64,000 bases of DNA from Trypanosoma brucei (Eukaryota): the NCBI GenBank assembly GCA_000002445.1, contig CH464492.1, forward strand, positions 64,001 to 128,000, read 5' to 3'. A program made the translations under genes and the position numbers. Shown here one piece after another: positions 13,576 through 53,699 of the stretch (position 1 is its first letter; the number at the start of each line of letters is the position of its first letter). Under the pieces are notes generated by a model, which saw nothing but the letters and a program-made list of their open reading frames with translations, ran no database searches and was not told the DNA's origin.

Positions 13576-15066
13576 GACGAAGATGGTGTAAAAATATAAA
13601 ATAGTTGCGATGGAAGCAATGTAAAGGATGTAAGAGGACTAGTTAGGTTAGTGAGTAGAATAGTGAGAAGAAGAGAAACACTATCACTAAGGAAGGGACA
13701 TAAAGAAAGTGGGAGGGATAAGGATATGGAATATACGCAGATTCAAACGCGAATGAGACCATGAACAGCATCGAACAGCTGCAGACGGCGAATGTGACAA
13801 TTAGAGATAAACAGAGTCGCGTTTAGACGCCAAATGCAGTCTACACAACTAATACAAAGGAGTAAAAGTGGAAGGCGAATAAACATACCACGATCAATAT
13901 GCTCTTAAGAACTATTTTAACAACGTATTATTTTAGCTTAAGGAACTATCATGGGTACACAAAAACTTAAAATAAAGAATTCAAATAATAAAAGAAATAC
14001 AATTAGTTTAAAAGTGCATCTGCTAACAACACTGACGAAACCGATGAAGAAAAGAAAAAAATAAAATGAAGAATGCAACAAACCGTGCACAATTTGCAAA
14101 AATTAGTATAAATGTAGCCTGTCAGGAGACAAGAGGAATATTACATCGAAAAACAAAAATGTAAACTCCAATAAAGAAGTTAAAGAAGAAGAGGATAGCG
14201 TATGAACAGTAAGCTTAAGTGGCCATTTTAAGGATAAAAATTGTAAAATATACTATATCGGAGAAAAAAATGCCGTTCCATATTTATGCGAACGCCAATT
14301 AGAGATTACAACTTGAATAGCATACCCAGATGGTTATAGGTAATATGACTTATGAGTGTAAAATTGAATTTATTTTATTAGAGATAATCCCGAACATTAC
14401 GATTGTTTCTCATACTCTTTTTATATTATAGCACCTTTTAGTACAGTTAACTTTAAAGAAAAACAATCGCAGTAAGAAAGTCAGAAACGAATGATACAAA
14501 TGGAAGACACACGGGCATTGTAGTTCCATATGGAAGATGTTTCTTGAAAAACAGCAGTGATGAATCTTCCTCAATACACAGAATGTTGTGGTGCAAACCA
14601 AAGAATCAAACAGATAGAATATCATACTGAATTAGCTACGCCACTAGAACCCGCGATTGAAAAGGACATTAAAATAAGATGCTGTGACCATCTAAAAGAC
14701 TATAAGAAAAGCCGCATCTCATCCAAAAATAAATTGATACAGAAGAGGAGATGGCTATGACTGTTTTTTCATTGTGATGGGAGTCCCTGCCGACATGAAA
14801 CAACAGAAAGAATTTACTCATAGAGTGTGAAGCGTTATTTACTTTAACAAAAGGCTGGAACAACAACGGGTGTGGCTTGTTAGATAAATAGTAAATGTAA
14901 ATTGAAAACATTTAAACGAATATAAAAAAGAATTTAAAATGAAAATAAGGAAGCCCTCAAACAGCGGATATATTACCATTTCACGTTATACCTAAGCATA
15001 AAGAGAAAAAGAGATGTATCAAAGAAAATTTTTCAACTCAGTAACCTACCAAACTGATCCATTCTG

Positions 15067-16520: not shown

Positions 16521-16619
16521 ATTAAATTTTTGAAAAACGTTTTGCTCAATTTTGTGAAATTTTTGAAATTTTTCTAAAATATGATATTCTTTTCACAGTT
16601 TTTCTCATATCTCTACAAA

Positions 16620-19600: not shown

Positions 19601-20320
19601 ATATCGTGAAGCTACGAGTAGTGGGTAATTTTCATTTTGTGTTCTCACACTGCGGGGTCCCAAGAAATGAAGCAGTTGACAAAGAAGCAGAGAAAGACGA
19701 TAAAATGCTAAGGACATATCCAGCATGGATCACGGACATAGTCACATGTATAGAAAGGCAAATACATCGAGAAAGGGACAATGAATTCGAAGAGGTCCAA
19801 AAGTCACAAACAAATCGCAGTGCTCTACTCAACCATATTAAACCTACGCAGAAAATATCCAAAGTGGACAGGATGGGAAAATCATTACTAGCGCAATTTA
19901 GAATAGGTACATCGAAACAATTCGGATGGCTACATCATGTATTCACAAAAGAAAACAGTGCAAAATGAGTGTAGATAGCGTCGTCGTGACTATGTGGAAC
20001 TGGAGACAGCTGTGAATGGGAAAGCGAGAAGTACACAGAATGATAATACGGAAACACAGTCATCACAGGTAACGGTAAGACAAAATGAGCCCATAATATC
20101 CCCGTTGTGCAACGTTGTGGGTGCACGTCTTCAAGCCAGAGTAGTGCACCTTATGAAGATACACAGTTGGGAAAGAGAAAGAGCACTGACAATGATGAAG
20201 ATAGCAAAAATTGGCGGTGCAGGAATATAAAGGTAAATACGGTTGCCATGTTTGTAAAAGGGATTGTGAGGTAAGAGGTTTACTTGTGGAGCACATGGTC
20301 ACAGACACAGACGCACACAC
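16620..20320 (+). mobile_element. DIRE (degenerate ingi/L1Tc-related non-LTR retroelement), interrupted by many stops
   Basis: The 5' region is collinear with the ingi 5' end (…ggcgcctgccgcctcatcgtggttccagggt… versus ingi …ggcgatgccggccacctcaacgtggtgccagggt…). It has a 2A-like motif LLKGDVEQNPGP at 16857-16883. It has RT remnants (PDMQIPTARKR…, and GFYADDLTIICT at ~18440, a YxDD box). It has an RNase H remnant (WSDGSVVLDASSGASAMMYS…CSYREDCVATEAGL, 19259-19501), an ingi-like segment FVFSHCGVPRNEAVD, and a terminal zinc-finger-like stretch CHVCKRDCEVRGLLVEHM. Confidence 0.7.
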
Positions 20321-23300
20321 ACACACCCTCTACCGCAAACCTAACACGTAACTCCTTCAAACCGGGCCAGCTCATCAAGTGCGGCGACGTTTCTTCGCAG
20401 ACGCCGCGTTGGCTGGTAACAGCGCGCTCTACCTTCATACCGTGCATCTTCTTTTGATATAGGGTGAGGCCAGTTTTGCTAGCACACTGCCTTCCGCATG
20501 TCGGGTACACCAACATGGATGTGTTTGTATGCGGGGAATCAGTGGCACACGATTTCGTGCTTTTGCTGCATTTAAGCTCGATTCCCTCACCTTTGTGGAA
20601 AGCCTTACAGTGTCGGATGAGGGAGTCCCTGCAACTGAGCACTTTTTGGCACACACCACACTGCACCTCGCCTTTCCCCGGGACGTCAACGTTTCCCTCA
20701 CGGGCACGCTTACGAGGGATTTGCACCACCACCACGGTACCGTCCTCCGTCACTATGCTCTTATGTTTGAATTTCTTGTGTAGTGACAGGGAAGAGCGTG
20801 TACCAATGCTCGCCTCGCACAGGTCACATTGAAACGGCAGCTTCCGTGTATCCTGAGGGGCTGGCGCTGCTGGGGCTCTACCATCTCCTTGCAACGAGTC
20901 CTCGTTTTCTCGCCCCCTTTTCACGCGGCAACTACCGCTACCTATGCCATGTATTGTTCTAAGGTGGTGTAATAGTCGGCCTGGCACTGCGAATTTGGAG
21001 GCACAGATGGTACAATGAAGCACCTGCGGTCTCATCGGGACTCGTGTGCTCGATGGTAGAGGAACGATCGCTACCACTGGAGGGGGCTCCTGGGGGATGT
21101 CCACTGCGGGTGTTGCATCGCCGTATTTGATCCTCCGGAGGGCATCAGCTCGCACAAAGCCATGTTTGTTTACCATATGCGTTACAGCACTCGAGCGGCA
21201 TTGGTATGTGGCATCACATTCCGTATATTAGGTCGGTTCGGAGGTTCTCTGAAGAGTGCGTGTCGCAACAGTTGGGGATGTTTGTATTGTGGGTCCTATT
21301 GCTTCATGTTTCGGGTTACACCATCGGCACTGTGGAGGCACACTCGGGTTGATATTTCGCAACATCCATCCATAGTGTCTTGAAGAACCAACCCGAAAGC
21401 GTGCCAGTGCCGTTTCTTCTTTCCTCGTCAGTTCTTCATTATGTTTTGTTGGAAAGTGGTTGCCCGTGATACCAAACCTATGAGTGTTCTCATGGACTTC
21501 TTCCGACCTAAGCACTCGCTTCGCATAAGAAATGATGTCGGGGATCCATGTGTCTCGCAACTGTGGTAAATCAGCGGCCTTTTTGGCCATTCCATCGCAA
21601 ACCTCATTCCGTTTCACGCCACAATGGCCAAACACAAATTGCAGTCGAATACGCACCTTCCTTCTCTGAACTTGAAGCAGAAGCCTCCATAGTCGTCTCA
21701 GAATTGGGTCCGTTACGGCTAGGAGGCCTGTCTGCAGTGCTGTCAACATTGACAGCGAGTCAGAGAAGATGGAAAACCTGCTCGGTGTGCTTCTGTATGC
21801 CGGAAGCCATTTCAAGCAGCCGTTGCAGTCCTATCTCTAATGCTACGCATTCCACTCTGTAACTGCATGAGAGTTCCCTTGCTCCGGTCTTGGGTGCACA
21901 AATCAGCGTGTTGTTTCTATAGAGCAGGGCAGCTGCTCCGGACTTCTCACCGAGGGACACGGATCCATCAGTCCACAATTCGTAGTGCTCTCGTCGCGGT
22001 GGCTCCTTCCCCCTCCGTGCAAAATGTCGTGCAATCCACTTTTCGGAAGCCTCCCTTTTGACATCGTCAGGGTCATCAGCGCACACAGCCTTTATCTGCG
22101 TGTGAAATAGCGGTCGGCAGCTGTGGCGGAGCGTCGATGTCTCCAGTGGGTGCTCGCTCGGCTCCATGCGGAGGTGGGGGTAGGACCGTATGATGCGGGA
22201 ATGTAGGGCTCTGACTGGGTGTTTGCTGTGGTATACTTCCTCAGCACTGCGACGCAAATATCCATCTCGTGACTCACACATCAGCATGAATTTCATGATG
22301 CGCACAAGAGTGGTCGTCTTGAGTGGCAGGAGGTTTGCTTCCAGCAGAGAGTCCTCTTTGCGCGTCCCATGCGGTATGCCAGCTATGATTAGACTAGCCT
22401 TGTGTTGTGCTGCTGCAAGGAGGTCGCGACTTCGGTTCTAAGCGTCCCAGTACCATACCTCAATGCCATACATGGTGTGTGCCTGTACGAGTGCTAGATA
22501 AAAAGCTCTCAGTACTTGTCGTCTTGGCCCCCATGTAGAAGCTGAGATGGCTGCTATCTGCAGTAGTAGGAAGTCCATCTTGCGTCTCGTTTCGGCCGCA
22601 TGTGTTGCCATCCCTTGCAGACACTGGAATGTTACTCCAAGAAGCTTCAGTGTCCTGTCAGCTCCTATTCTTTCGCCGTCCAGTTGTAATGTAAGGGGGT
22701 GGCGCCCTATACACCCGAAGAGTGTGCACTTTGTTTTCGCTATATTGACAGACATGAAGTACTCTTGTGACCATTGTAACACCACGTTTAGACCGCATTG
22801 TAGCGTGTGGTTGATGACATCCCTCTCTGTGTGCCTCGCAAGTAGCGTTAGGTCGTCTGCAAAGAATCCGTGCTGCAGTAACGGCACTTCGACAAGGCGT
22901 TGGCTCAACGAGTTCATGACAATAATGAACATGATTGTGCCAAGGACAGTTCCTTGTGGCACTCCTCGCTCAAATGTTCTGCTGCTGGAAAGCTTCTCCT
23001 TGAATCTCACTCTGCCAGTTCAGTTACTCAGAAATGATACGAACCACTTCACAATGTGGGGTGATACCTTCATTCTGTGCATTTCCCTCGCAATTTTGTC
23101 GTGGTCCACTGTATCAAATGCCTTCTCGTAGTCGACGAATACAGCACCCGTACGATATTGGTGCGTGGGACGGCAGAGGGCAGCGCGGACGTGCAGGAGT
23201 TGTTCGAGCGTTGAGCATCCGGGGCGAAAGCCTGATTGCTGCGGCGTCAGCTGGGACTCAACAGTGTCTCTAAGTCTCGCGGCAATTATGCGCTCCATGA

Positions 23301-25049
23301 CTTTGCAGAGACAGCTCGTGAGCGTCACAGGCCTGTAAGAATCGAGGTCCTCCCACTTTTTTCCGGCCTTCAGGATGGGGATGATAACACCAGTCTTCCA
23401 TGCAGGCGGCACGACTCCCGTTCGTAGGCTCTCATTGAATAGCCTCAGAACAAAACTCAGCGCTGTTCTACCGAGATGTTGCAGTGCCTCGTTGTATAAG
23501 CAATCAGGTCCGGGTGCGGATCCACTCGGAAGCAGTTTGATCGATCTCCGTAGTTCAGCCATCGTGATGGGACTGAACTCACTCGCTATCGTCTTTATTG
23601 GTGCCGGTGGGTGTGAGTCGGGGTGCCTTCTTGCGCGGGACGAGTACAGTTTACTGAACCTCTCAGCTTGACGGTAGTCCGTGATGGCCGCGTTATCAAC
23701 AAGTACCGCCGGTGTGGTTAGTGGTCGTGGCGCATATACCTTCTTGACAATGTGCCAACTGCAGCGGTCTGACACCGCAAGTCTGGAGCATAGCGTGCTC
23801 CATCTCTTCTTTGTGGTACGGTCCAGAATCTGCTTACGCGTGGCTACCAACTTTTCCCTTCGGTGGGAGGGTCCGCATCCAGCGATCTCTTCATCGAGTT
23901 TCGCGAGCTCAGGTGTCCAATGTGGTGGCGTTGCTCTGCAGCCATAGAGCACGGAGACCTTCGTCGCAATGCGGATGGCGGAGCTCAATTTCTGTTCCAG
24001 GGTGTTGACGTTCTTCTCTCTACCAATTTTCCTGCAGAGCTCGTCAACCTTGAGACGGAAATTCCTCCAGTCAGCTTTTAGCCATGCGTACATGGGCTTT
24101 CGAAGCCGCGGGCAACTCAGTGCATCTGTGCCGTCTCCAACGATAACGTCGAAAAATATGTGATGGTGATCGCTATCGGGAGAATACAGCGATGTCCACG
24201 TGTACACTGTGCAATTCCTTGACAGTGTCACATCAGGGGTGGACTCCCCGTGGTGGCGTGCGTACCTGGTGCACTCACCAGTGTTGCAGACCAGAAACTG
24301 GTTGTCAATGCACCACTGTGTGAGGGTTTCACCCTTGGTATTTGGTGGGCTCGCGCGATCCCATGCCAACGCGTGTGCGTTAGCGTCTGCACCGATGAGC
24401 TGGGCACCGTCAGTCGTCAGAAGCGTATCTAGGTCAGTTGCCGTGAAGGTGTGTTTTGGTGGGATGTATGCCGACGTGACAGTCAGCGCCGTTCCACGTG
24501 CAAGGTGAATTGTTGCATGCACTTGTTCAATGCGACCAACAACGGTCATACCAGTCTCGACTAGCAGGTTCTCCATCACTAGTATTGATACACCACCTCC
24601 TTTGCAGTTACGAGCTATTCTGTGATGTCGGTAGCCAGCAACGCTAAAGCAAACCACCTCTCCAGGCGTCATCCTTGTCTCGCTCAACAGACAAAAGACA
24701 ATCCGCTCATCAACAAGGGTTTTGTGAAGTGCTAATCTCTTTCCTTGAGATAGCCAGGCGCAGTTCCACTGCATCCCGCGAAACAACTAGACGGGATTCT
24801 CTTCCACATCACCGGACAGCAGCATGTTAGTGCGTATGATACTGCTGATGACACGCTGGCACGTGGCCAGGGACCGACAAATGAAAAACGGTGTCCCAGC
24901 AAGACGCTGCTGATCCCTGTGCTGTATGATGCCGTAGCCGGAGCACAGCAGTGTTCCCCATGAAAGGAAAGCTGCTGGCTCTTCGCTTCCCCCGATGATA
25001 CGGGGTACTGGACCCTGGCAACACGTTGAGGTGGCCGGCATCTCCGGGG
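20320..25049 (-). mobile_element. ingi: ingi non-LTR retrotransposon, copy 1, 3'-truncated and interrupted
   Basis: The minus-strand ORFs 23020-24786 (2A-like motif, AP-endonuclease, RT N-terminus), 22438-23010 (RT with FADD), 21760-22305 and 21228-21815 (RNase H region) and 20280-21176 (C2H2 zinc fingers) are collinear with, and by eye almost identical to, the + strand copy at 33650-38910. The 5' end is at ~25049 (reverse complement of ccccggagatgccggcc). Similarity to copy 2 stops at ~20320 inside a (GT/CA)n run. About 0.58 kb of 3' sequence, including the poly(A), is therefore missing. Confidence 0.85.
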
Positions 25050-25243
25050 ACTACCATAGTACGTTACCCTTATAGGCGACTATTAAACATGTTCTGCTAA
25101 AATTTTATTTTTTATAGCTTTTAAAAATGTTACAATCCCTCAATGGCTTTACACAATTTTAAAATATAAGAATTATTAATAATTTTTTGATAAACGTTAT
25201 AAATTTAAGAAAAAATTCTTTGAAAGTTAAAATTCTTCAAAAC

Positions 25244-28167: not shown

Positions 28168-29640
28168 TTAGAAATTTACTGCAATTAGTCTTCTCATCTT
28201 TTTTTCCTCTGCCTGTGGCATTTTGTAATCATTGTCCACTACGCACTTCTTTTTCTCCGTTTTCTGTAGCTTTTTTGCAGCCTTCTTAGCAAGCTTCTCC
28301 CATTTTCCCTTGCAATCATCTGATTTAGGAACATGCGGTGCTTTGCTCGGTATGGAATTTGCTGCTTCTAGTTCGGAAGCGAGTTTCCCTAATTCTTCTC
28401 GCTTTTGTAGATGATTCAGCAGAATGGTGCGCCTTGCGTCGTCGCTACTTACTGCCTCCTTCAGTGGTTTAGTTGTAGTTTTGTCACCTTCTATTCTTGT
28501 TGCCATTTGTGCTTTTATCTTTTCAACAATCTTCTCCTCAGATTTTGTGTCTGCATTATCTGCCGCCACTTTGCCCATTTCCTCGGCTGCCTTGCTTGCG
28601 GATTTTCCTGTTTTGTACGGTTCTTGAGTTATTAATACTGCTTCCAGAAGTTTCTGAGCAGCTTTTGATGCCACCACTGTTTTTATTACGTCCTCAGCGC
28701 TTTGTCCACAGCCTGTGTTTTCAAATGTTAGCAGGTCGGTTAAGGAGTTGAAAATTTTTTTCGATATGTTGTCGGCGTTCGCAAATTTGTAGTCCGCGGC
28801 ACCGCCGTTAGCTGAAATTACGGTTGAATCCTCGGTACCGACGGTTTTGTGTGGTTTCCGAGTGAGCATTTCCTGCATGACATATTTTCCGGTCGGCGTA
28901 TTTTCGTGGCAAATCGCTGACGATGTGTCCGCTGTTCCTGCGAGTAAGCCGCACTTAGTGCTGTGCGTTGCGGTTATTTTGGCTTGACCTGGTGTCAGTG
29001 TTGTGAACCCAGTGCTGTAAATGACCATCGTGTCTAGGCTGGCTATCGGTGCGAAGTCTGTTAGAAGCTCCGGTGGGCATTCTAGGTCTGTTATTGTCGT
29101 ATCCTTTGTTCTGCTGGCCGCGGTTGTTCCTAAGCAAAAGTTTGTCTGTGTGTTTTTTGTCGTCCGGGATATCTGTCTAAGGAATTCCGCCATTTCGGCT
29201 ATGCGCTTGGTCGTCTTGACACTGGGTGCTATCGCTCTGCTTTCCGCCTTAGGTAGCTCAGTAAGCTTGTTATTAGCGTTCTCGCCGTAGCCCCTGGTTC
29301 CTAACCTTATTGCCTTAAATACCGTCGAAGTGGTTAGTTCAGTTTCTGCTGCTGCGGCACTCTTCGCCATTGTCGCCGCTGCTGCTGCTGCTTTGACGTA
29401 TAGATACTTTTTTGCTGCCACAGCTGGTGTCCGCGCTAGCTGTGCTGCTACTTTGGACAAGCCTTTTATTTTGGTTTCGTCAATGGGCGTTTGGCTTGCG
29501 GGATAAGTTTTAGCAAAAGTACTGCGACGAGGGCCTTGGTAAACATCCTGTAGTTTTCTTTTTTAGAAAAATTTTCGTTGCGGTGATGGAAGCGGGTTTT
29601 TGTTCTAGCAGTTGCGTGTCTCCCTTAAAACAGAAATCTC
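28168..29640 (-). pseudogene. VSG-like gene fragment: N-domain present, no GPI signal or canonical 3'UTR
   Basis: ORF 28168-29460 (430 aa) contains N-domain-type motifs (LECPPELLTDFAPIASL…KCGLLAGTADTSSAICHENT…GCGQSAEDV). It ends …CKGKWEKLAKKAAKKLQKTEKKKCVVDNDYKMPQAEEKKMRRLIAVNF* with no hydrophobic tail. An upstream extension to ~29640 lies in another frame. No 16-mer follows it. Confidence 0.5.
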
Positions 29641-30935: not shown

Positions 30936-31269
30936 ATTGTAATATTAGTAGATAAACGCTGACAACACACTTCTATTATTATTCCCACTATTATTACAAC
31001 CCTAACCAATATGCATAAAATTAGAAAAATAAGATAAAAAATATTAGCACTCATTTTTAATAGCCTGTGACTCTACGAATTTTTACCCATAGTTCTAATT
31101 GTAATATATTTTACAAAAAAATTAAGATTTTTCAAATTTTCAAAGTTTTTACTAATTTGTAAATTTTTATCAAAAAGTGAAATATATCAAGTTATAGAAA
31201 ATTATATAAATATCATAAAATTAAGCAAAAAAATTCACTAGAGTTTTAAAATGAAATCTAACTCGTAAA

Positions 31270-32765
31270 TGCATAAACAATCAGAGCTATTTTCTTATTT
31301 ACAACAGAACTGGAATCTCTGCAATCTTCACCTTCCAATTTACAGCTTTTGACATTTTCACAAACGGCTTTCTCAGTGCCGTGTTTTGTACATCCAGTTT
31401 CTTCTGCTGGTCCCGTTCCTGATTGGGTTGCTTATTGTGCTGCTTTTGTATTCAATTTGCATCTTTTTCATCAGGTCCTTCCTATTTGCAGTGGCCTTTT
31501 TGTTTGCAGTCGCTTGCTTTCTGTATCTCCTCACACTCTTTGGCCTTGCTAGTTTGTTCTTCTTTGTTCGTTTTGGTTAATGATTCGGGTGGATTCTGCT
31601 GCGCCTGTTGTTTCTTTATTAGCTGAACTTGAGGTAGCATGCTGAACGCCAGAGTTTTCAGCTTTTGCAATTTTTTGTTGCCTGCCAGGATTTGTGCCCT
31701 TTTGGCTTCTCTGCTGTGAAGTAAGTTTGAAGCCTTGATTAGCTCTTTGCGCCACGGCATATTGTTTATCTTTTCTACATCGCTTTTGCTGGCCGTTTTG
31801 TACATTGCACACACGCCTTGGCCGGTGTTGCCGTTGCAGCCCGTGCCTGTGTAGCTGCCGATGAACATGTTTGTTGTTTTTGTTGTGAACTTTGCTTTTA
31901 GGGTTTTGATCGCTGCCGTTAACTCAGCGCTTGTGATTGGGTTGCTACTGGTTTGGCAGTGCTTTATGAGGTCTTCGCCTAAGTCTTTAAGGTTGTTTAG
32001 CGTGGCTTCGACTTGGTCGTCGGCCTGATTTGTTATGCAGAGGTCGGCTTCTCCTGAGTCTGCCCCTTTGCCGCATACGCAAAGGGCGATCGTAATTAGC
32101 GCTTCTGCTTTGGCAGATGTCCCTGACGTGCCGCACAGGGCTGTGTGGCTGGCTGCAGCGTTTTTTAGTTTGTTGTTGTCAAGCTTTGTCGCCGCGCTGT
32201 CCGGTTGGCCAAAAAGGCCTGTATTTAGGGCTTGTATGATGTTTGCTGGCGTATCCGGGGCTGCATCCTGTGTTAGGCTGTTAAGTTCGACATTTATTGC
32301 GGCTGCTTGTTCAGCAACGGGCTGTAGCAACTGCAGATAAAGTTGCTTGTCGGTGCCGCTTGCCCCTCCAAGGCCTGCCCGTTTTTCGATTGCTGCCGCT
32401 TTGTTTGGTTCCTCCAGCGCCTCCTCCGCTGCTATCCAGTCTGGCCAGCGCTCTTTTTGAATGGTGTCTTCCCCTTGTTTTGGCGTTGTATACTCCGGCC
32501 TGGGTTTGCCTTGCCCTGGCTTGGCGAATTTCTTGCGCCACTCCGCGTCACTTAAAGATGTATTTAGTTGTAGGATGTCTAGATAATCAGTCTTTGCCGT
32601 ATAGGTGTCGTCCGGTGTTTGTGATATTCTCGTCGGTGCAGTTAACAGTTCGCACAGGTTGTGAAAAAGATGTGCGTGCTCGCCGGTCGTTGGGCCGGTC
32701 GCGGTCCGGGATACTATGAGCAGCATCGCTAAATATGCTGTCGCTTGTTGGAGATAGCCTAGCAT
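31270..32765 (-). pseudogene. VSG pseudogene with a frameshifted C-terminus
   Basis: ORF 31482-32765 (427 aa) has a signal peptide (MLGYLQQATAYLAMLLIVSRTATG), an N-domain (ITIALCVCGKGADSGEADLC) and a C-domain (KECEEIQKASDCKQKGHCK). In another frame at ~31270-31420 the reverse complement encodes …CKLEGEDCRDSSSVVNKKIALIVYAFTS*, a degenerate GPI signal. Confidence 0.75.
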
Positions 32766-33609
32766 GCTTCACTTTGTTATGGTGCTTCTTTGATTTGAAG
32801 GCAGTTAGGTGGTAGAATTAGGGGATACAAGTTTTCTGCTGCTGCTGTTTTGCCTTAGTTATGCTCATTACCTACGCAATAATCCTGTATCATTGTTAGC
32901 ACATTTCCTTTATATCAGCCGTTAAATCGAATAAAAATTCTACAAACAATATGAGCTTCCATTTCATAAACTAAATTGTTAACATATACATTCGGTACAA
33001 GATAGGCAGCCACGGCCGCCGCCATCACCAGTGTTTTGCCTGTTCATTTTCGTGTAAAATGTGGTTCTATTTTAAGTCAAATAGAGTATTTTCGAGTGTT
33101 TAATCTTAAGGTTCTCTACGGTTAAGTTTCCTAGCCGCAGAGTCAAGTCGTGATTTATATATTTTTTACCCTTTATTTTGCGAATAATATTCTGATGTTC
33201 TAAAAGACGCTTCTTCCCATCTCTTTCTAAATATTCCCTTAATCAGGAACTTCAATGTTGTTGGTTCTTCCATATGTTCCACTGTCCGGCGAGGGTTGCT
33301 GTCACTTATTGCTTTCCTTTAAACTTACAGATCCAGAAAGATGTAACGGAGATGAAATGTCTATTAGAAATGTCTGCAACATTGGGTCCACATACTTTAT
33401 TAAGTAGGATCATTTCTACTAAATATACCATTTCAGCTATGTTTTCAAGCCAATTTGGGTTTCATATGGGAAAATAGAAAAACTTGCTTTCTATTTAATA
33501 TACTTCCAATTTTCATGAGTGTAGCTTCTAGTGAGTCTCATTATTTTCTTCACTATCTCTTCAGGATGTCACAGTTTTTTGTGCTTTTACTTTTTTGTTT
33601 TGATGTACT

Positions 33610-34479
33610 TTGGAGTTTAACGCTGCTGGAAACGATAAGCAGCATTGCTCCCTGGCGATGCCGGCCACCTCAACGTGGTGCCAGGGTCCAGTACCCCGTA
33701 TCATCGGGGGAAGCCAAGAGCCAGCAGCGTTCCTTTCATGGGGAACAATGCTGTGCTCCGGCTACGGCATCATACAGCACAGGGATCAGCAGCGTCTTGC
33801 TGGGACACCGTCTTTCATTTGTCGGTCCCTGGGCACGTGCCAGCGTGCCATCAGCAGTATCATCCGCACTAAGATGCTGCTGTCCGGTGATGTGGAAGAG
33901 AATCCCGGCCCGTCGTTGCGCGGGATGCAGTGGAACTGCGCCGGGCTATCTCAAGGAAAGAGATTAGCACTCCACAAAACCCTTGTTGATGAGCGGATCG
34001 CCTTTTGTCTGTTGAGCGAGACAAGGATGACGCCTGGAGAGGCGGCTTGCTTTAGCGTTGCTGGCTACCAACATCACGGAATAGCTCGTAACTGCAAAGG
34101 AGGTGGTGTATCAATACTAGTGAGGGAGGACCTACCAGTCGAGACCGGTATGGCCGTTATTGGTCGCATTGAACAAGTGCATGCAACAATTCACCTTGCA
34201 CGTGGAACGGCGCTGACTGTCACGTCGGCATACATCCCACCAAAACACACCTTCACGGCAACTGACCTAGATACGCTTCTGACGACTGACGGTGCCCAGC
34301 TCATCGGTGCAGACGCTAACGCACACGCGTTGGCATGGGATCGCGCGAGCCCACCAAATACCAAGGGTGAAACCCTCACACAGTGGTGCATTGACAACCA
34401 GTTTCTGGTCTGCAACACTGGTGAGTGCACCAGGTACGCGCGCCACCACGGGGAGTCCAGCCCTGATGTGACACTGTGA
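33610..34479 (+). CDS. ingi N-terminal segment: 2A-like peptide plus apurinic/apyrimidinic-like endonuclease domain (289 aa, ends at a premature stop)
   Basis: Contains LLSGDVEENPGP at 33886-33912, then QWNCAGLSQGKRLALHKTLVDERIAFCLLSETRMTPGE…, typical of the endonuclease N-terminus of L1Tc/ingi-type elements. Confidence 0.8.
   Translation: MEFNAAGNDKQHCSLAMPATSTWCQGPVPRIIGGSQEPAAFLSWGTMLCSGYGIIQHRDQQRLAGTPSFICRSLGTCQRAISSIIRTKMLLSGDVEENPGPSLRGMQWNCAGLSQGKRLALHKTLVDERIAFCLLSETRMTPGEAACFSVAGYQHHGIARNCKGGGVSILVREDLPVETGMAVIGRIEQVHATIHLARGTALTVTSAYIPPKHTFTATDLDTLLTTDGAQLIGADANAHALAWDRASPPNTKGETLTQWCIDNQFLVCNTGECTRYARHHGESSPDVTL
33635..33649 (+). repeat. Target-site duplication (left copy) of ingi copy 2: ATAAGCAGCATTGCT
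   Basis: The identical 15-mer recurs at 38911-38925, immediately after the element's poly(A). Confidence 0.8.
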
Positions 34480-34491
34480 AGGAATTGCACA

Positions 34492-35664
34492 GTGTACACG
34501 TGGACATCGCTGTATTCTCCCGATAGCGATCACCATCACATATTTTTCGACGTTATCGTTGGAGACGACACAGATGCACTGAGTTGCCCGCGGCTTCGAA
34601 AGCCCATGTACGCATGGCTAAAAGCTGACTGGAGGAATTTCCGTCTCAAGGTTGACGAGCTCTGCAGGAAAATTGGTAGAGAGAAGAACGTCAACACCAT
34701 GGAACAGAAATTGAGCTCCGCCATCCGCATTGCGACGAAGGTCTCCGTCCCCCGTGGTTGCAGAGCAACGCCACCACATTGGACACCTGAGCTCGCGAAA
34801 CTCGATGAAGAGATCGCTGGATGCGGACCCTCCCACCGAAGGGAAAAGTTGGTAGCCACGCGTAAGCAGATCCTGGACCGTACCACAAAGAAGAGATGGA
34901 GCACGCTATGCTCCAGACTTGCGGTGTCAGACCGCTGCAGTTGGCACATTGTCAAGAAGGTATATGCGCCACGACCACTAACCACACCGGCTGTACTTGT
35001 AGATAACGCGGCCATCACGGACTACCGTCAAGCTGAGAGGTTCAGTAAACTGTACTCGTCCCGCGCAAGAAGGCACCCCGACTCACACCCACCGGCACCA
35101 ATAAAGACGATAGCGAGTGAGTTCAGTCCCATCACGATGGCTGAACTACGGAGATCGATCAAACTGCTACCGAGTGGATCCGCAGCCGGACCTGATTGCT
35201 TATACAACGAGGCACTGCAACATCTCGGCAGAACAGCGCTGAATGTTGTTCTGAGGCTATTCAATGAGAGCCTACGAACGGGAGTCGTGCCGCCTGCATG
35301 GAAGACTGGTGTTATCATCCCCATCCTGAAGGCCGGAAAAAAGGCGGAGGACCTCGATTCTTACAGGCCTGTGACGCTCACGAGCTGTCTCTGCAAAGTC
35401 ATGGAGCGCATAATTGCCGCGAGACTTAGAGACACTGTTGAGTCCCAGCTGACGCCGCAGCAATCAGGCTTTCGCCCCGGATGCTCAACGCTCGAACAAC
35501 TCCTGCACGTCCGCGCTGCCCTCTGCCGTCCCACGCACCAATATCGTACGGGTGCTGTATTCGTTGACTACGAGAAGGCATTTGATACAGTAGACGACGA
35601 CAAAATTGCGAGGGAAATGCACAGAATGAAGGTATCACCCCACATTGTGAAGTGGTGCGTATGA
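34492..35664 (+). CDS. ingi middle segment (RT fingers/palm N-terminal part), 390 aa
   Basis: …LPSGSAAGPDCLYNEALQHLG…PILKAGKKAEDLDSYRPVTLTSCLCKVMERII…FRPGCSTLEQLL…AVFVDYEKAFDTVDDDKI…. Confidence 0.8.
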   Translation: MYTWTSLYSPDSDHHHIFFDVIVGDDTDALSCPRLRKPMYAWLKADWRNFRLKVDELCRKIGREKNVNTMEQKLSSAIRIATKVSVPRGCRATPPHWTPELAKLDEEIAGCGPSHRREKLVATRKQILDRTTKKRWSTLCSRLAVSDRCSWHIVKKVYAPRPLTTPAVLVDNAAITDYRQAERFSKLYSSRARRHPDSHPPAPIKTIASEFSPITMAELRRSIKLLPSGSAAGPDCLYNEALQHLGRTALNVVLRLFNESLRTGVVPPAWKTGVIIPILKAGKKAEDLDSYRPVTLTSCLCKVMERIIAARLRDTVESQLTPQQSGFRPGCSTLEQLLHVRAALCRPTHQYRTGAVFVDYEKAFDTVDDDKIAREMHRMKVSPHIVKWCV

Positions 35665-35688
35665 TTTCTGAGTAACCGAACTGGCAGA

Positions 35689-38637
35689 GTGAGATTCAAG
35701 GAGAAGCTTTCCAGAAGCAGAACATTTGAGCGAGGAGTGCCACAAGGAACTGTCCTTGGCCCAATCATGTTCATTATTGTCATGAACTCGTTGAGCCAAC
35801 GCCTTGCAGAGGTGCCGTTACTGCAGCACGGATTCTTTGCAGACGACCTAACGCTACTTGCGAGGCACACAGAGAGGGATGTCATCAACCACACACTACA
35901 ATGCGGTCTAAACGTGGTGTTACAGTGGTCAAAAGAGTACTTCATGTCTGTCAACGTAGCGAAAACAAAGTGCACACTCTTCGGGTGTATAGAGCGCCAC
36001 CCCCTTACATTACAACTGGACGGTGAAAGAATAGGAGCTGACAGGACACCGAAGCTTCTAGGAGTAACATTCCAGTGTCTGCAGGGGATGGCAACACATG
36101 CGGCCGAAACGAGACGCAAGATGGACTTCCGACTACTGCAGATAGCAGCCATCTCAGCTTCTACATGGGGGCCAAGACGACAAGTACTGAGAGCTTTTTA
36201 TCTAGCACTCGTACAGGCACACACCATGTATGGCATTGAGGTATGGTACTGGGACGCTTCGGAACGAAGTCGCGACCTCCTTGCATCAGCACAACACAAA
36301 GCCAGTCGCATCATAGCCGGCATACCGCATGGGACGCGCAAAGAGGACTCTCTGCTGGAAGCAAACCTCCTGCCACTCAAGACGACCACTCTTGTGCGCA
36401 GCATGAAATTCATGCTGATGTGTGAGTCACGAGGCGGATGTTTGCGGCGCAGTGCTGAAGAAGTATACCACAGCAAACACCCAGTCAGAGCCCTACATTC
36501 CCGTATCATGCGGTCCTACCCCCACCTCCGCATTGAGCCACGCGAAAACCCACTAGAGACATCGACGCTCCGCCACAGCTGCCGACCGATATTTCACACG
36601 CAGATAAAGGCTGTGTGCGCTGATGACCCTGACGATGTCAAAAGGGAGGCTTCCGAAAAGTGGATTGAACGACATTTTGCACGGAGGGGGAAGGAGCCAC
36701 CGCGGCGAGAGCACTACGAATTGTGGACTGATGGATCCGTGTCCCTCGGTGAGAAGTCCGGAGCAGCTGCCCTGCTCTATAGAAACAACACGCTGATTTG
36801 TGCACCTAAGACAGGAGCAGGGGAACTTTCATGCAGTTACAGAGCGGAATGCGTAGCATTAGAGATAGGACTGCAACGGCTGCTGAAATGGCTTCCGGCA
36901 TACAGAACCACACCGAGCAGGTTGTCCATCTTCTCTGACTCGCTGTCAATGTTAACAGCACTGCAGACAGGCCCCCTAGCCGTAACGGACCCAATTCTAA
37001 GACGACTATGGAGGCTTCTGCTTCAAGTTCAGAGAAGGAAGATACGTATCCGACTGCAATTTGTGTTTGGCCATTGTGGCGTGAAACGGAATGAGGTTTG
37101 CGATGACATGGCCAAAAAGGCCGCAGATTTACCACAGTTGCGAGACACATGGATCCCCGACATCATTGCTTATGCGAAGCGAGTGCTTAGGTCGGAAGAA
37201 GTCCATGAGAACACTCATAGGTTTGGTATCACGGGCAACCACTTTCCAACAAAACATAAGGAAGAACTGACGAGGGAAGAAGAAACGGCACTGGCACGCT
37301 TTCGGGTTGGGTCTTCAAGACACTATGGATGGATGTTGCGAAAGATTAACCCGAGTGTGCCTCCACAGTGCCGATGGTGCAACCCGCAACATGCAGAGAT
37401 AGGGCCAACAATACAAACAGCCCCAACTGTTGCGACACGCACTCTTCAAAGAACCTCCGAACCGACCAAATGTACGGAATGTGATGCCACATACCAATGC
37501 CGCTCGAGTGCTGTAACGCATATGGTAAACAAACATGGCTTTGTGCGAGCTGATGCCCTCCGGAGGATCAAATACGGCGATGCAACACCTGCAGTGGATA
37601 TCCCCCCGGAGCCCCCTCCAGTGGTGGCGATCGTTCCTCTACCATCGAGCACACGAGTTACGATGAGACCGCAGGTGCTTCATTGTACCATCTGTGCCTC
37701 CAAATTCGCAATGCCAGGCAGACTACTACACCACCTTAGAACAATACATGGCATAGGCAGCGGTAGTTGCCGCGTGAAAAGGGGGCGAGAGAACGAGGAC
37801 TCAGAGCAAGGAGATGGTAGAGCCCCAGCAGCGCCAGCCTCTCAGGATACACGGAAGCTGCCGTTTCAATGTGACCTGTGCGAGGCGAGCTTCGGTACAC
37901 GTTCTTCCCTGACACTACACAAGAAATTCAAACATAAAAGCATAGTGACGGAGGACGGTACCGTGGTGTTGGTGCAATTCCCTCGTAAGCGTGCCCGTGA
38001 GGGAAACGTTGACGTCCCGGGGAAGGGCGAGGTGCAGTGCGGTGTGTGCCAAAAAGTGCTCAGTTGCAGGGACTCCCTCATCCGACACTGTAAGGCTTTC
38101 CACAAAGGTGAGGGAGTCGAGCTTAAATGCAGCAAAAGCACAAAATTGTGTGCCACTGATTCCCCGCATACAAACACATCCATGTTGGTGTGCCCGACAT
38201 GCGGAAGGCAGTGTGCTAGCAAAACTGGCCTCACCCTACATCAAAAGAAGATGCACGGTATGAAGGTAGAGCGCGCTGTTACCAGCCAACGCGGCGACTG
38301 CGAAGAAACGTCGCTGCACTTGATGAGCTGTCCCGGTTTGAAGGAGTTACGTGTCAGATTTGCGGTAGAAGGTGAGTGTGTGCAGGATGTATGTTTCTCC
38401 AAAAGGCTGGCGCAGTTTCTCATTGCGGTTGAACGGAGCCGGCCGCAGGTGAAGTCCTCACCTAAGGTAACAGTCATACAACCCACTCTCCCTTCTGCAA
38501 CTTCCCCCCTTATTGCCGAGTGTGGAGCCAGCAGGAAAAGCACCGGACGCAGGAATAGTCCAGACACCCTCAGAGACAGAGGAGGTATGCAGTCAACAAG
38601 CAACAAAAACAGAAACAGAAAGAGGGGGAGAGAATAA
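35689..38637 (+). CDS. ingi polyprotein C-terminal segment (reverse transcriptase, RNase H, C2H2 zinc-finger domains), 982 aa
   Basis: Has the RT YxDD box (GFFADDLTLLA), an RNase H segment (ELWTDGSVSLGEKSGAAALLY…CSYRAECVALEIGLQ) and a Cys2His2 cluster (CTICASKFAMPGRLLHHLRTIHG; CDLCEASFGTRSSLTLHKKFKH). Confidence 0.85.
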   Translation: MRFKEKLSRSRTFERGVPQGTVLGPIMFIIVMNSLSQRLAEVPLLQHGFFADDLTLLARHTERDVINHTLQCGLNVVLQWSKEYFMSVNVAKTKCTLFGCIERHPLTLQLDGERIGADRTPKLLGVTFQCLQGMATHAAETRRKMDFRLLQIAAISASTWGPRRQVLRAFYLALVQAHTMYGIEVWYWDASERSRDLLASAQHKASRIIAGIPHGTRKEDSLLEANLLPLKTTTLVRSMKFMLMCESRGGCLRRSAEEVYHSKHPVRALHSRIMRSYPHLRIEPRENPLETSTLRHSCRPIFHTQIKAVCADDPDDVKREASEKWIERHFARRGKEPPRREHYELWTDGSVSLGEKSGAAALLYRNNTLICAPKTGAGELSCSYRAECVALEIGLQRLLKWLPAYRTTPSRLSIFSDSLSMLTALQTGPLAVTDPILRRLWRLLLQVQRRKIRIRLQFVFGHCGVKRNEVCDDMAKKAADLPQLRDTWIPDIIAYAKRVLRSEEVHENTHRFGITGNHFPTKHKEELTREEETALARFRVGSSRHYGWMLRKINPSVPPQCRWCNPQHAEIGPTIQTAPTVATRTLQRTSEPTKCTECDATYQCRSSAVTHMVNKHGFVRADALRRIKYGDATPAVDIPPEPPPVVAIVPLPSSTRVTMRPQVLHCTICASKFAMPGRLLHHLRTIHGIGSGSCRVKRGRENEDSEQGDGRAPAAPASQDTRKLPFQCDLCEASFGTRSSLTLHKKFKHKSIVTEDGTVVLVQFPRKRAREGNVDVPGKGEVQCGVCQKVLSCRDSLIRHCKAFHKGEGVELKCSKSTKLCATDSPHTNTSMLVCPTCGRQCASKTGLTLHQKKMHGMKVERAVTSQRGDCEETSLHLMSCPGLKELRVRFAVEGECVQDVCFSKRLAQFLIAVERSRPQVKSSPKVTVIQPTLPSATSPLIAECGASRKSTGRRNSPDTLRDRGGMQSTSNKNRNRKRGRE

Positions 38638-38910
38638 TAAACGAATAACAAAAAACAAAACAAAAGGATTGCTAATTGACATCTTTGGGAGAGTCCGGGG
38701 TGAGGGGGGCTTCTCGCCCCATCTACTGTATTCCGTTCAACTGCGGAGCTACAACAAAAATTATAGAGGGTGTGTTAGGATGAATAAAAAAGGGAGACTC
38801 TGCCACAGTCGCCAGACCGATAGCATCTCAGGGCTCTACGGTGATGGCTGATGGCCGCGCCAGTTGGGAGAAACTCTCACGAAGGCACGAAGAAAATTAA
38901 AAAAAAAAAA

Positions 38911-38925
38911 ATAAGCAGCATTGCT
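38911..38925 (+). repeat. Target-site duplication (right copy) ATAAGCAGCATTGCT
   Basis: Directly follows the ingi poly(A). Identical to 33635-33649. Confidence 0.8.
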
Positions 38926-39183
38926 TGAAGTAATCAGCAAGGAAAGGACTTTGTACACATTTCCCTATACTCCCTACAGTCACTCTATATTAAAAAGCCT
39001 TATTTTCTAAAATTTAAGTCACAGCATCGAGGAAATATCTACACACTTACCATTGCTTTCAGTAAAAGTTTAGAATGTTACTTTAACGTGTCACTGACTG
39101 AACATTGACTGAATTACAAGTCTTTCGTCAAAATTCCATTCCACTATTTCTATTGATTTAAGTGCTTCTTTTTCCCAGATCAT

Positions 39184-39610
39184 TTAGTCTTCACCACCCC
39201 TCTTATTATAAGGTTCGTATACACACTCACAACACTCTCCTGTTATTATCATCATTATTATTATTACTATCATTATTACTGCTCTTATTATAATATTCGT
39301 ATATACACTCTCACTCTCACAACACTCTCCTATTATTATTATTATTATTATTATTATTACTGCCCTTATTATAATATTCGTATATGCATACTCACAACAC
39401 TCTCCTATTATTATTATTATTATTACTGCTCTTATTATAATATTTGTATATACACACTCACAACACTCTCCTATTATTATTATTATTATTACGGATCTTA
39501 TTATAATATTCGTATATACACACTCACAACACTCTCCTATTATTATTATTATTATTACGGATCTTATTATAATATTCGTATATACACACACTCACAACAC
39601 TCTCCTATCA
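39184..39610 (-). repeat. Tandem array of ~6 70-bp repeats in reverse orientation, with long (ATT)n tracts
   Basis: Repeated units of cttattataatattcgtatatacacactcacaacactctcctattattattatt… This is the only multi-copy 70-bp array in the window. Confidence 0.9.
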
Positions 39611-39822
39611 TTATCGTTACATCACTATTTTAATGCTAACAAGTATCCATAAGTGACTTAAATAAACAAAATAAAGTAAATTAGAATAACACTAACTTGT
39701 CATACCATTATCCATACTGCTGTTGAACCACACGCTACATTAATACCAAATTGCAAACTTTAAATATTTTGAATTTTTTAGTTATCATGGTGTTCGCGAA
39801 TTTTTATATTTGCATTTAATAG

Positions 39823-39838
39823 TGTTAAAATATATTAA
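39823..39838 (-). promoter_or_regulatory. VSG 3'UTR 16-mer variant (TAATATATTTTAACAC, minus strand)
   Basis: The + strand reads gtgttaaaatatatta. It lies downstream of the GPI-signal remnant of the minus-strand VSG pseudogene. Confidence 0.65.
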
Positions 39839-39929: not shown

Positions 39930-41447
39930 TACCTAAACTACAAATTGTGGTGAGAAAAGAGCAAATTTTCTATTTAAGAGAATGATTGAGTTTTTTAAAG
40001 CATTATTTTTTCTATTTTCAGCCAAGAGCCTTGGCGCAGTCTATTTCTAATTTCCTTTTACTTTTTTTGTAGCTGTTGTCTCTGCTTGCTCCATCTTCTG
40101 CTACCGCATTTAACTGCTCTGAAATTGGTTTTTATCTATTTCGCACTCCCCTTTCCCGCTTTCCCCACCTTTCCATATGCAGTTAGCATCAATACAAGCA
40201 GCTTTGTTGTTTTTGTGTGCGGTGAAAATGGCTTGTTATTTCTGTGGGTTTCCCGCGCCCTTTTGCTCTGTTTGGGCCTGTGCCTGCGACAGGGGTGGGA
40301 CCAGTTTGCCTATAACTGCCGCCTGGTAGACTGCTATTGCTTTTGCGTAAGTTGTTTCTATCGTTGCTGCGTAGAGGCTTTCTTGAGCTTGCTGCAGCGC
40401 TCTTTTTTCAATTGCTACTGCTGCTTGGCGCATCTTGTTGTACCACGGCTGTGTTTCGTGTGTCGTTGTTGATGACTTCTTGAAAAAGTTTGTGTACTCG
40501 ACGCAGGTGTTGCCGGCCGTCCCGGCGCATTCGCTCCCTGTGTTGCTGCTTTTGCCGATCCAGACGCTGTTGTCACTTGCTGCTCCTTGTTGTGTGAGGC
40601 TGCCGTGCCAAGCTTCCAGTGCAGCCGCTATTTCGTGGGGTGTGATGACGTTCTCAGTGTTTAGTGCGCACGAAGCTTTGAGGTCCGCCCATTTTGTTGT
40701 GATCGTCCCCTGATTGTCTATTTCCGCACCGGTAAACGCGCCGCTGCATTCTTTTGCTGCGCCCCCGCTGCCGCCGCGCATACAGAGAAAATCGCCACTG
40801 ATCGACTTTCGCTTGTCGTCGCCGTTGCAGTGGCTTGCCCAGTTGCTGCCCGTACCAAAGCTTGTTGATTGCGTGAGTGCATCTGCTGCCGCTCCGTCTT
40901 CGTATAGTGCTTCACGAAGCAGTTTTTGGATGTTGTTAGTCTCGTCGTTTGTTATAAAGTCCTTGGCTGCCTTCCACTTCTTGCTGATTTCGACTGCTTT
41001 CGCTGTTAACTCCAGGAGGCGATTGTGGGCTGCGAATTGCTGTCGAGCGTCTGCTATTGCTGGGAAGTCTTTGTCTTCCTGTGTTCCAATCTTTTTCTTC
41101 TCCGCCTCCTCTTTGTCTGTTCGCCACGCTCCCCAGGCTGCTGCTCCTCCGAGTGCGCCCGCCTCTTTTTTGCCTTCTGCCGAGAGCTTTTCGTATGCGT
41201 TGCTATTGTTCTTTGAGTTGAACAAAGCGTGCCATTCTTTTGGTGAAGTTGACATGTTGGCTGCTCTTAGTGTTGCTATGTGGGTTTCGATATTTGTTGT
41301 TACGGTCATGTCTGAAAGTTTGCCAGTGGCCGCTTGCAGTAGCCTACACATGGTCCGGTGTTCGCGGGCGTCTTCGTCTGCTGCTCCTTCAGCTGCCCGG
41401 CCCACTATTAGCAGGAAAAGAAGGTGGTTAAATTGTTCTTTCTTCAT
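39930..41447 (-). pseudogene. VSG pseudogene with a frameshifted C-terminus
   Basis: ORF 40236-41447 (403 aa) has a signal peptide and N-domain (MKKEQFNHLLFLLIVGRAAEG…GDFLCMRGGSGG). The downstream reverse complement encodes a C-domain (ACIDANCIWKGGESGKGECEIDKNQFQSS*) and, in a third frame, a GPI-signal remnant (NSIILLNRKFALFS). Confidence 0.75.
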
Positions 41448-53339: not shown

Positions 53340-53520
53340 TGCAGTTTCTATTTATCATTATTACTGCTCTTATTATATTATTCGTATATACACACTCACA
53401 ACACTTTCCTATTATTATTATCATTATTATCATTATTATTATTAATACTGATCTTATTATAATATTCGTATATACACACACTCACAACACTCTCCTATTG
53501 TTATTATTATCATTTTCATT
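53340..53520 (-). repeat. 70-bp repeats, ~2.5 copies, reverse orientation
   Basis: ctcttattatattattcgtatatacacactcacaacactttcctattattattatc… appears twice. It is ~0.85 kb upstream of the VSG at 52502. Confidence 0.85.
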
Positions 53521-53699
53521 TTATCCTAAATTCCTTATAATAGTCATTAAAAATAGATGACCAAAATTAGAATATCATTCATTTTTAATTTTCTGTTACT
53601 ATACTACCTTGCACACATAGGATACTATCATACATATTTAACTGAAATTATAAAATTTTCATTTTTTTATGCTTCTCAAAATAGAAAAATAGCAAAGTT

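What the first reader, a model, noticed from the sequence alone, without database searches (positions are those of the whole stretch)
33635..38925. Full-length ingi (5,261 bp) with a perfect 15-bp TSD, inserted in the co-transposed region between a 70-bp repeat array and its VSG
The element starts at ccctggcgatgccggcc (33650) and ends in A13 (38910). It is flanked by identical ATAAGCAGCATTGCT copies at 33635-33649 and 38911-38925. These are a target-site duplication and mark a clean, relatively recent retrotransposition.

The insertion site is informative:
- The only multi-copy 70-bp array in the window (39184-39610) is in reverse orientation. It must therefore belong to a minus-strand VSG to its left.
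- Removing the ingi leaves ~1.15 kb between that array and the start of the VSG pseudogene at 32765. That is the normal size of a VSG co-transposed region.
- The ingi therefore split a VSG cassette from its 70-bp recombination handle. This could affect how that VSG is used as a gene-conversion donor.

The element is not autonomous. Two in-frame stops, near 34480 and 35665, break its single long ORF.
Basis: seen in the sequence. Interest (0 to 1): 0.6.

Follow-up and report, generated by a model that had tools for sequence, protein, structure and literature searches.

The report
Ingi retrotransposon inside a VSG cassette
This is an ordinary, well-preserved but coding-defective copy of the known Trypanosoma brucei ingi retrotransposon, inserted between a silent surface-antigen pseudogene and its upstream 70-bp repeats, an arrangement already described in this parasite.

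Summary
ATAAGCAGCATTGCT occurs exactly twice in the window (33635-33649, 38911-38925). It directly flanks a 5,261-bp element (33650-38910). The element starts at +1 of the trypanosomatid 77-79-bp retroposon signature and ends in an A-run (A12; A13 only if the first repeat base is counted).

[quoted passage not shown] Two TGA codons (34477, 35662) break the frame. It is 96.4% identical to a second, 3'-truncated ingi in the window.

It lies antisense in the 5' flank of a minus-strand B-type VSG. That VSG has an open N-terminal domain and a broken C-terminal domain. The element sits 869 bp upstream of the VSG ATG and about 260 bp from a six-unit 70-bp array. Removing it leaves 1,143 bp, within the 0.77-1.73 kb seen for other cassettes here.

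Corrections:
- The duplication is 14-15 bp, not the 12 bp reported as conserved for the ingi clade.
- A second two-unit 70-bp array exists at 53351-53525.
- The perfect repeat alone bounds the age only weakly. An outgroup test (3 versus 28 derived changes) supports relative youth better.
- An ingi between 70-bp repeats and VSG is already documented in an activatable Lister 427 expression site (BES2), so functional disruption is unproven.

Verdict: already known, low interest.

The parts
33635..33649 (+). Left copy of the target-site duplication ATAAGCAGCATTGCT
   Evidence: Identical to 38911-38925, and the only two copies in the window.
33650..38910 (+). Full-length ingi non-LTR retrotransposon (5,261 bp, GC 53.1% against 41.1% in its flanks)
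   Evidence: It is 96.4% identical over 4,733 bp to a second copy at 25049..20316.
33650..33729 (+). 5' 77-79-bp retroposon signature (Pr77 hallmark), starting at +1
   Evidence: 62 of 77 positions match the published L1Tc Pr77 oligonucleotide (PMC1874656). The alignment begins at the first base.
33658..38637 (+). Single long reading frame of 1,659 codons, interrupted by two TGA codons
33889..33912 (+). 2A-like peptide motif DVEENPGP (codons 78-85)
   Evidence: That this motif is typical of L1Tc/ingi is from my own knowledge.
33925..34476 (+). Apurinic/apyrimidinic-type endonuclease domain, cut near its C-terminal end by the first stop
   Evidence: Exo_endo_phos E=2.6e-6 and Exo_endo_phos_2 E=4e-10.
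34477..34479 (+). In-frame TGA (codon 274). The other ingi copy has TCA here; relatives have Cys or Ser
35344..36072 (+). Reverse transcriptase domain, split in two by the second stop
   Evidence: RVT_1 profile positions 5-101 lie before the stop and 110-205 after it.
35662..35664 (+). In-frame TGA (codon 669) inside the RT domain. The other copy has TCA here
36712..37125 (+). RNase H domain
   Evidence: PF00075, E=2.3e-9.
37864..38256 (+). C2H2 zinc-finger region
   Evidence: zf-C2H2_4 E=5.6e-7 and zf-C2H2 E=0.0048.
38899..38910 (+). 3' A-run (A12; A13 with the first base of the right repeat)
38911..38925 (+). Right copy of the target-site duplication
32766..33634 (-). VSG-proximal part of the upstream (co-transposed) region, 869 bp
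   Evidence: No paralogue in the window.
38926..39183 (-). Repeat-proximal part of the upstream region, 258 bp
39184..39614 (-). 70-bp repeat array of six units, oriented for a minus-strand VSG to its left
   Evidence: Every other VSG in the window has its 70-bp unit upstream in the same relative orientation.
31249..32765 (-). B-type VSG pseudogene. The N-terminal domain is open for 427 codons. The C-terminal domain is broken by TGG->TAG (CK*EG), a frameshift and a further stop
   Evidence: VSG_B, E=3.6e-53; 100% to T. brucei ARB50700.1, 72-75% to intact VSGs; tblastn.

Best explanation
A full-length Trypanosoma brucei ingi (L1Tc/ingi-clade non-LTR retrotransposon) inserted by target-primed reverse transcription into the 5' flank of a silent array VSG. 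The inferred steps are these. The ingi endonuclease nicked the bottom strand just left of ATAAGCAGCATTGCT (after ...GGAAACG). The freed 3' end primed cDNA synthesis on the poly(A) tail. The top strand was cut 14-15 bp further on, and fill-in produced the duplication. The copy is antisense to the VSG array and cannot encode its own machinery, because TGA stops truncate the endonuclease and split the reverse transcriptase. Either it acquired these stops after insertion, or a defective transcript was mobilised in trans by an intact ingi. It is one of several hundred ingi/RIME copies in this genome and has no demonstrated function. Its only local consequence is to lengthen the distance between the 70-bp repeats and the VSG from 1.14 to 6.4 kb. 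Shown here: boundaries, duplication, domains, stops, cassette geometry and relative preservation. Inferred: the nicking order, the time of inactivation, and any effect on recombination.
For: The perfect 15-bp direct repeat sits exactly at both ends and is unique in the window. The 5' end coincides with +1 of Pr77, at 62/77 identity to the L1Tc Pr77, and the 3' end is an A-run. The domain order is APE endonuclease, RT, RNase H, C2H2. The best protein relatives are T. vivax and T. congolense ingi-type reverse transcriptases at 40-43% identity. The element is 96.4% identical to another ingi in the window. Its GC is 53.1% against 41% in the flanks, matching published values of 52.3% for ingi and 41% for the genome (PMC2323293). 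The VSG_B domain and the 100% match to a T. brucei VSG place it in a VSG array. After excision the repeat-to-ATG distance is 1,143 bp, inside the 771-1,728 bp range of seven other cassettes in the window. Only 3 derived non-synonymous changes occur at outgroup-conserved sites, against 28 in the other copy, so little decay has occurred.
Against: The duplication is 14-15 bp, whereas the clade is reported to have a size-conserved 12-bp TSD (PMC3820030). I treat this as a length variant: in T. cruzi L1Tc, by my recollection of Bringaud 2006, 87% rather than 100% are 12 bp. I could not obtain the T. brucei length distribution. The 18-20 bp immediately upstream are not T-rich, although a T-rich upstream motif is reported (PMC2323293); a T-rich stretch lies 30-60 bp upstream. 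No empty site from another strain or paralogue could be retrieved.
Confidence: 0.93

Rival explanations
1. The copy was already defective when it moved. A transcript carrying the two TGA codons was reverse-transcribed and inserted in trans by the protein of an intact ingi, as happens for RIME. This is a sub-variant of the main explanation, not an alternative to retrotransposition.
For: Two nonsense codons accompany only 3 derived missense changes at conserved sites. That is a high stop-to-missense ratio compared with 4:28 in the other copy, but the numbers are too small to be significant. Trans-mobilisation of RIME, and possibly of degenerate elements, by ingi is the accepted model (PMC2323293, PMC1874656).
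Against: The other ingi in the window has TCA at both positions, so the stops are not fixed in the family. LINE proteins generally prefer their own RNA in cis (general knowledge). No further ingi copies were available to see whether the stops are shared.
Confidence: 0.3
2. The insertion functionally uncouples the VSG from its 70-bp recombination handle and so changes its use as a gene-conversion donor.
For: With the ingi present, the array-to-ATG distance is 6,419 bp, against 771-1,728 bp for the other cassettes. The N-terminal domain is open, so in principle it could be used with a 3' crossover upstream of the defects (inference).
Against: Lister 427 BES2 carries an ingi 3' of its 70-bp repeats and can still be activated (PMC2567434), so this geometry is tolerated. 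The gene is a pseudogene. Such genes contribute mainly by segmental conversion within the coding region, which does not need the 70-bp repeats (general knowledge of mosaic VSG formation). Nothing here measures recombination.
Confidence: 0.15
3. The arrangement is an assembly artefact or arose by recombination between dispersed ingi copies, not by a direct insertion at this site.
For: Ingi and RIME are known to mediate rearrangements and to confound assemblies (PMC2854126).
Against: Recombination or chimeric assembly would join unrelated flanks. Here both flanks carry the same unique 15-mer exactly at the element ends, and together they rebuild an upstream region of normal length.
Confidence: 0.02

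Closest known systems
Tbingi (ingi4 subclade of the L1Tc/ingi clade), the 5.25-kb autonomous non-LTR retrotransposon of T. brucei
   Same: Length (5,261 vs 5,250 bp). The 77-79-bp 5' signature from +1. A poly(A) 3' end. A single long frame with endonuclease, RT, RNase H and zinc fingers. GC of about 52-53%. A flanking direct repeat. Most genomic copies are likewise non-coding: by my recollection of Bringaud 2004, only about 7% are potentially functional.
   Different: The flanking repeat is 14-15 bp instead of the reported 12 bp. The frame is interrupted by two TGA codons.
Ingi element 3' of the 70-bp repeats in Lister 427 bloodstream expression site BES2 (VSG 427-9), Hertz-Fowler et al. 2008, PMC2567434
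   Same: [quoted passage not shown]
   Different: That case is a telomeric, activatable expression site with an intact VSG. This one is a silent array cassette with a VSG pseudogene. Orientation and exact position in BES2 were not compared.
Ingi presence/absence polymorphisms between T. b. brucei and T. b. gambiense (PMC2854126)
   Same: A discrete ingi insertion of about 5-7 kb, as a source of structural variation.
   Different: Those were scored in core chromosome regions. The polymorphism status of this subtelomeric copy is unknown.
L1Tc of T. cruzi
   Same: Same clade, shared Pr77 (62/77 identity here), the same domain order, a 2A-like N-terminal motif, and insertion by TPRT with a short TSD.
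   Different: A different species and subclade. Outside Pr77 there is low nucleotide similarity (PMC1874656).

Membership tests
Tbingi (L1Tc/ingi-clade non-LTR retrotransposon) | Conserved 77-79-bp signature at the extreme 5' end | tested here: met
   62/77 identical to the published L1Tc Pr77 oligonucleotide, aligned from base 1. Published ingi/L1Tc similarity is 76.6% (PMC1874656).
Tbingi (L1Tc/ingi-clade non-LTR retrotransposon) | Length of about 5.25 kb with a 3' adenosine-rich tail | tested here: met
   5,261 bp, ending in A12. The 5.25 kb figure is from PMC2323293.
Tbingi (L1Tc/ingi-clade non-LTR retrotransposon) | [quoted passage not shown] | tested here: met
   Pfam domains in this order; 1,659 codons in one frame. 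The frame is broken by two TGA codons, so the copy is a member but non-autonomous.
Tbingi (L1Tc/ingi-clade non-LTR retrotransposon) | Flanked by a short target-site duplication (modal and reportedly conserved length 12 bp) | tested here: met
   A perfect direct repeat is present. Its length is 14-15 bp, not 12 (PMC3820030), which is a deviation in size only.
Tbingi (L1Tc/ingi-clade non-LTR retrotransposon) | High nucleotide identity to other T. brucei ingi copies | tested here: met
   96.4% over 4,733 bp to the copy at 25049..20316. No external ingi reference sequence was available.
Tbingi (L1Tc/ingi-clade non-LTR retrotransposon) | Terminal ~250 bp at each end correspond to the two halves of RIME | not testable with these tools
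   There is no RIME copy in the window (one search found only the two ingi copies), and no RIME reference was retrievable.
Tbingi (L1Tc/ingi-clade non-LTR retrotransposon) | Conserved ~11-bp pattern (ingi4 signature) upstream of the TSD | not testable with these tools
   The consensus appears only in papers or figures that are not held. Both ingi copies here have AACG just before the presumptive TSD, but n=2.
Potentially autonomous (functional) ingi | Uninterrupted long ORF | tested here: not met
   TGA at codons 274 and 669. The second TGA splits RVT_1.
Silent-array VSG cassette (70-bp repeat / upstream region / VSG) | 70-bp repeat unit(s) upstream of the VSG in a fixed orientation, roughly 1-2 kb from the start codon | tested here: met
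   The orientation matches that of all other cassettes in the window. The distance is 1,143 bp after excision, against 771-1,728 bp elsewhere. About 1.5 kb is quoted in PMC4858185.
Silent-array VSG cassette (70-bp repeat / upstream region / VSG) | Intact VSG with N-terminal domain, C-terminal domain and GPI signal | tested here: not met
   The N-terminal VSG_B domain is intact. The C-terminal region has TGG->TAG, a frameshift and another stop. This makes it a pseudogene cassette.
Silent-array VSG cassette (70-bp repeat / upstream region / VSG) | Conserved 16-mer TGATATATTTTAACAC in the 3' UTR | tested here: not met
   No match with up to 2 mismatches downstream of this VSG. Only a degenerate TGATATATTTCAC is visible near 31190.

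The most novel reading that the evidence does not exclude
The copy belongs to a lineage of full-length but stop-containing ingi elements that are still mobilised in trans, with an atypical 15-bp stagger. Their landing close to 70-bp repeats, as in BES2, would reflect a target preference that repeatedly places ingi inside VSG cassettes and modulates which silent VSGs can be copied as whole cassettes.
Probability: 0.07. Interest if true: 0.4.

Novelty: already known. Interest (0 to 1): 0.1.

Why it matters
It matters little beyond annotation. It is a clean textbook example of target-primed reverse transcription in a trypanosome VSG array. It could serve as a presence/absence marker between strains. 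Because its VSG keeps an open N-terminal domain, it could also serve as a natural test of whether an extra 5.3 kb between the 70-bp repeats and a VSG changes donor use. The 14-15-bp duplication is a minor exception to the reported 12-bp rule.

Tried and rejected
Searches that gave nothing:
- Exact-protein look-ups for the VSG (427 aa), the neighbouring VSG (403 aa) and the 982-aa ingi ORF in the contig collection all returned nothing. No orthologous or empty site from another strain could be fetched.
- A metagenome scan with the first 40 bp of the element found nothing, so I ran no further search on the reconstructed empty site.
- BLAST of the reconstructed empty site against the window found no paralogous unoccupied site. 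Only the 70-bp units matched elsewhere.
- The protein search with the full ingi translation returned no T. brucei ingi proteins, only T. vivax and T. congolense relatives at 40-43% identity. I therefore could not test whether the two TGA codons are shared among T. brucei copies.
- Rfam at gathering thresholds found nothing in the window, including no HDV-like ribozyme family at the 5' end.
- The papers holding the ingi insertion-site consensus and the original ingi sequence are not held.

Explanations considered and rejected:
- A chance repeat (expected 0.02 copies per window).
- Misassembly or recombination (the flanks match each other).
- A 12-bp TSD plus a chance 3-bp match. This would need an ATA at the end of the poly(A) tail, which is less parsimonious.

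Full report
**Observation.** The sequence reads ...GCTGGAAACG ATAAGCAGCATTGCT CCCTGGCGATGCCGGCC... at 33625-33666, and ...AAAATT A12 ATAAGCAGCATTGCT TGAAGTAATC... at 38893-38935.
- The 15-mer occurs only at these two places, even when one mismatch is allowed. None of 100 dinucleotide-preserving shuffles gave two matches.
- The bases just outside the repeat differ on both sides, so the duplication is at most 15 bp.
- Its first base is an A that continues the A-run, so the true stagger is 14 or 15 bp. The tail up to 38910 is A12, not A13.
- The enclosed element is 5,261 bp.

**What the element is.**
- From ATG 33658 to TAA 38635 there is one frame of 1,659 codons. It is interrupted only by TGA at 34477-34479 (codon 274) and TGA at 35662-35664 (codon 669).
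- Pfam finds, in order, an AP-type endonuclease (Exo_endo_phos and Exo_endo_phos_2), RVT_1, RNase H and C2H2 zinc fingers. RVT_1 profile positions 5-101 lie before the second stop and 110-205 after it.
- A DVEENPGP 2A-like motif lies at codons 78-85.
- The first 77 bases match the published L1Tc Pr77 sequence at 62 of 77 positions, aligned from the very first base. The 5' end is therefore the complete +1 end shared by trypanosomatid retroposons (PMC1874656, PMC4035085).
- GC is 53.1% against 41.1% in the flanks. This matches published values of 52.3% for ingi and 41% for the T. brucei genome (PMC2323293).
- A second copy lies on the minus strand at 25049..20316. It is 96.4% identical over element positions 1-4733 and lacks the 3' end.
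- The nearest database proteins are ingi-type reverse transcriptases of T. vivax and T. congolense at 40-43% identity.
- The organism is T. brucei or a close relative. The adjacent VSG is 100% identical to GenBank ARB50700.1, and 70-bp repeats are restricted to the T. brucei group (PMC4858185).
- Together these features identify a full-length Tbingi.

**Context.** The window is a silent VSG array.
- The ORF 32765..31482 on the minus strand is a B-type VSG N-terminal domain (E=3.6e-53).
- Compared with intact relatives of 494-516 aa (72-75% identity), the conserved CKWEG has become CK*EG (TGG->TAG). The frame then shifts and another stop follows. No good 3'-UTR 16-mer is present. It is therefore a pseudogene with an open N-terminal domain.
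- The 70-bp array has six core units between 39202 and 39585.
- Its orientation matches that of the single or double units lying upstream of every other VSG in the window on either strand. It therefore belongs to the minus-strand VSG on its left.
- The VSG on its right (41447..40236) ends before the array, with its 16-mer at 39822-39837.
- The repeat-to-ATG distance is 6,419 bp with the ingi and 1,143 bp without it. Seven other cassettes here range from 771 to 1,728 bp, and about 1.5 kb is quoted in PMC4858185.
- The element lies 869 bp upstream of the ATG, about 260 bp from the array, and antisense to the VSG.

**Mechanism.** The complete 5' end, the A-tail and the exact flanking duplication are the signature of target-primed reverse transcription (PMC4035085, PMC3820030).
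- I infer a bottom-strand nick after ...GGAAACG, priming on the poly(A) tail, and a top-strand nick 14-15 bp downstream.
- The ingi clade is reported to have a size-conserved 12-bp TSD (PMC3820030; about 12 bp in PMC2323293), so this copy is a length variant.
- Reading it as a 12-bp TSD plus three chance matches would require the RNA tail to end in AUA, which is less parsimonious.
- The truncated second copy has AACG exactly 12 bp before its 5' end. This copy has AACG exactly 15 bp before its 5' end. That fits a conserved first-nick site with a variable second nick, but it rests on only two cases. I could not reach the published consensus.

**Age and coding status.** A perfect 2 x 15 bp repeat is a weak clock. 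It remains 74% likely at 1% divergence and 35% likely at 3.5%. [quoted passage not shown]
- At sites where the outgroups agree with one copy, this copy carries 3 derived changes and the other copy carries 28.
- This copy has 2 stops. The other has 4 stops and a frameshift.
- The flagged copy is therefore close to the functional ancestor and comparatively young.
- Both of its stops are TGA where the other copy has TCA.
- Whether they arose after insertion, or were carried by a transcript mobilised in trans, cannot be decided without more copies.
- Either way the copy is non-autonomous, like most genomic ingi. By my recollection of Bringaud et al. 2004, only about 7% are potentially functional.

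**Functional claim.**
- Lister 427 BES2 carries an 'ingi element 3' of 70-bp repeat' and can be activated in vitro (PMC2567434). An ingi in this position is therefore tolerated in a working expression site.
- The VSG here is a pseudogene. By general knowledge, such genes contribute mainly through segmental conversion inside the coding region.

**Comparison and novelty.**
- Ingi/RIME number in the hundreds per genome; there are 470 TALE target sites in the 427 assembly (PMC12975129).
- They are known in subtelomeric VSG regions and as strain polymorphisms (PMC2854126).
- An ingi between 70-bp repeats and a VSG has been described (PMC2567434).
- This is one more copy of a known element in a known kind of place. 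The only slightly unusual detail is the 14-15-bp duplication.

**What failed.** No T. brucei contigs could be retrieved for an empty-site test. No paralogous empty site exists in the window. No T. brucei ingi proteins were returned. Rfam gave no hits.

Noticed in passing
window 20316-25049 (minus strand): A second ingi copy covering element positions 1-4733, 96.4% identical to the flagged copy. It is 3'-truncated at a GT-rich stretch, so it was not produced by normal 5' truncation. It has 4 in-frame stops, a 1-bp insertion and 28 derived changes at conserved sites, and is much more decayed than the flagged copy.
   Followed up: partly
window 6550-8330: Two VSG 3' ends converge (16-mers at 6550-6565 on + and 8312-8327 on -). 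Between them lie head-to-head degenerate telomere repeats: TTAGGG-like at about 6690-6800 and CCCTAA-like at 7968-8143. The latter includes a perfect 29-bp higher-order unit repeated 4.4 times. An A-rich spacer of about 1.1 kb separates the two. It looks like a fossil fusion or capture of two telomeric VSG ends inside the array.
   Followed up: no
window 53351-53525: A two-unit 70-bp repeat array upstream of the minus-strand VSG starting at 52502. The array at 39184-39614 is therefore the largest, but not the only, multi-copy array in the window.
   Followed up: yes
window 33627-33634 and 25062-25069: Both ingi copies have AACG immediately 5' of the presumptive target-site duplication: 15 bp before the element in the flagged copy and 12 bp before it in the truncated copy. 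This may be part of the endonuclease recognition pattern.
   Followed up: partly
window 34477-34479 and 35662-35664: Both inactivating stops are TGA where the other copy has TCA. They are two of only seven G-versus-C differences among the 168 substitutions between the two copies.
   Followed up: partly
window 13500-20300: A stretch of about 7 kb between the plus-strand VSGs (5103-13320) and the minus-strand part of the array. It has no Pfam-recognisable ORFs, ends at the truncated ingi, and marks the strand switch of the array.
   Followed up: no
window 28168-29460, 44619-46235, 50946-52502 (minus strand): Long ORFs in VSG-like positions, each with an upstream 70-bp unit, that give no significant or only marginal Pfam hits. 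They are probably divergent A-type VSGs that the Pfam models miss.
   Followed up: partly
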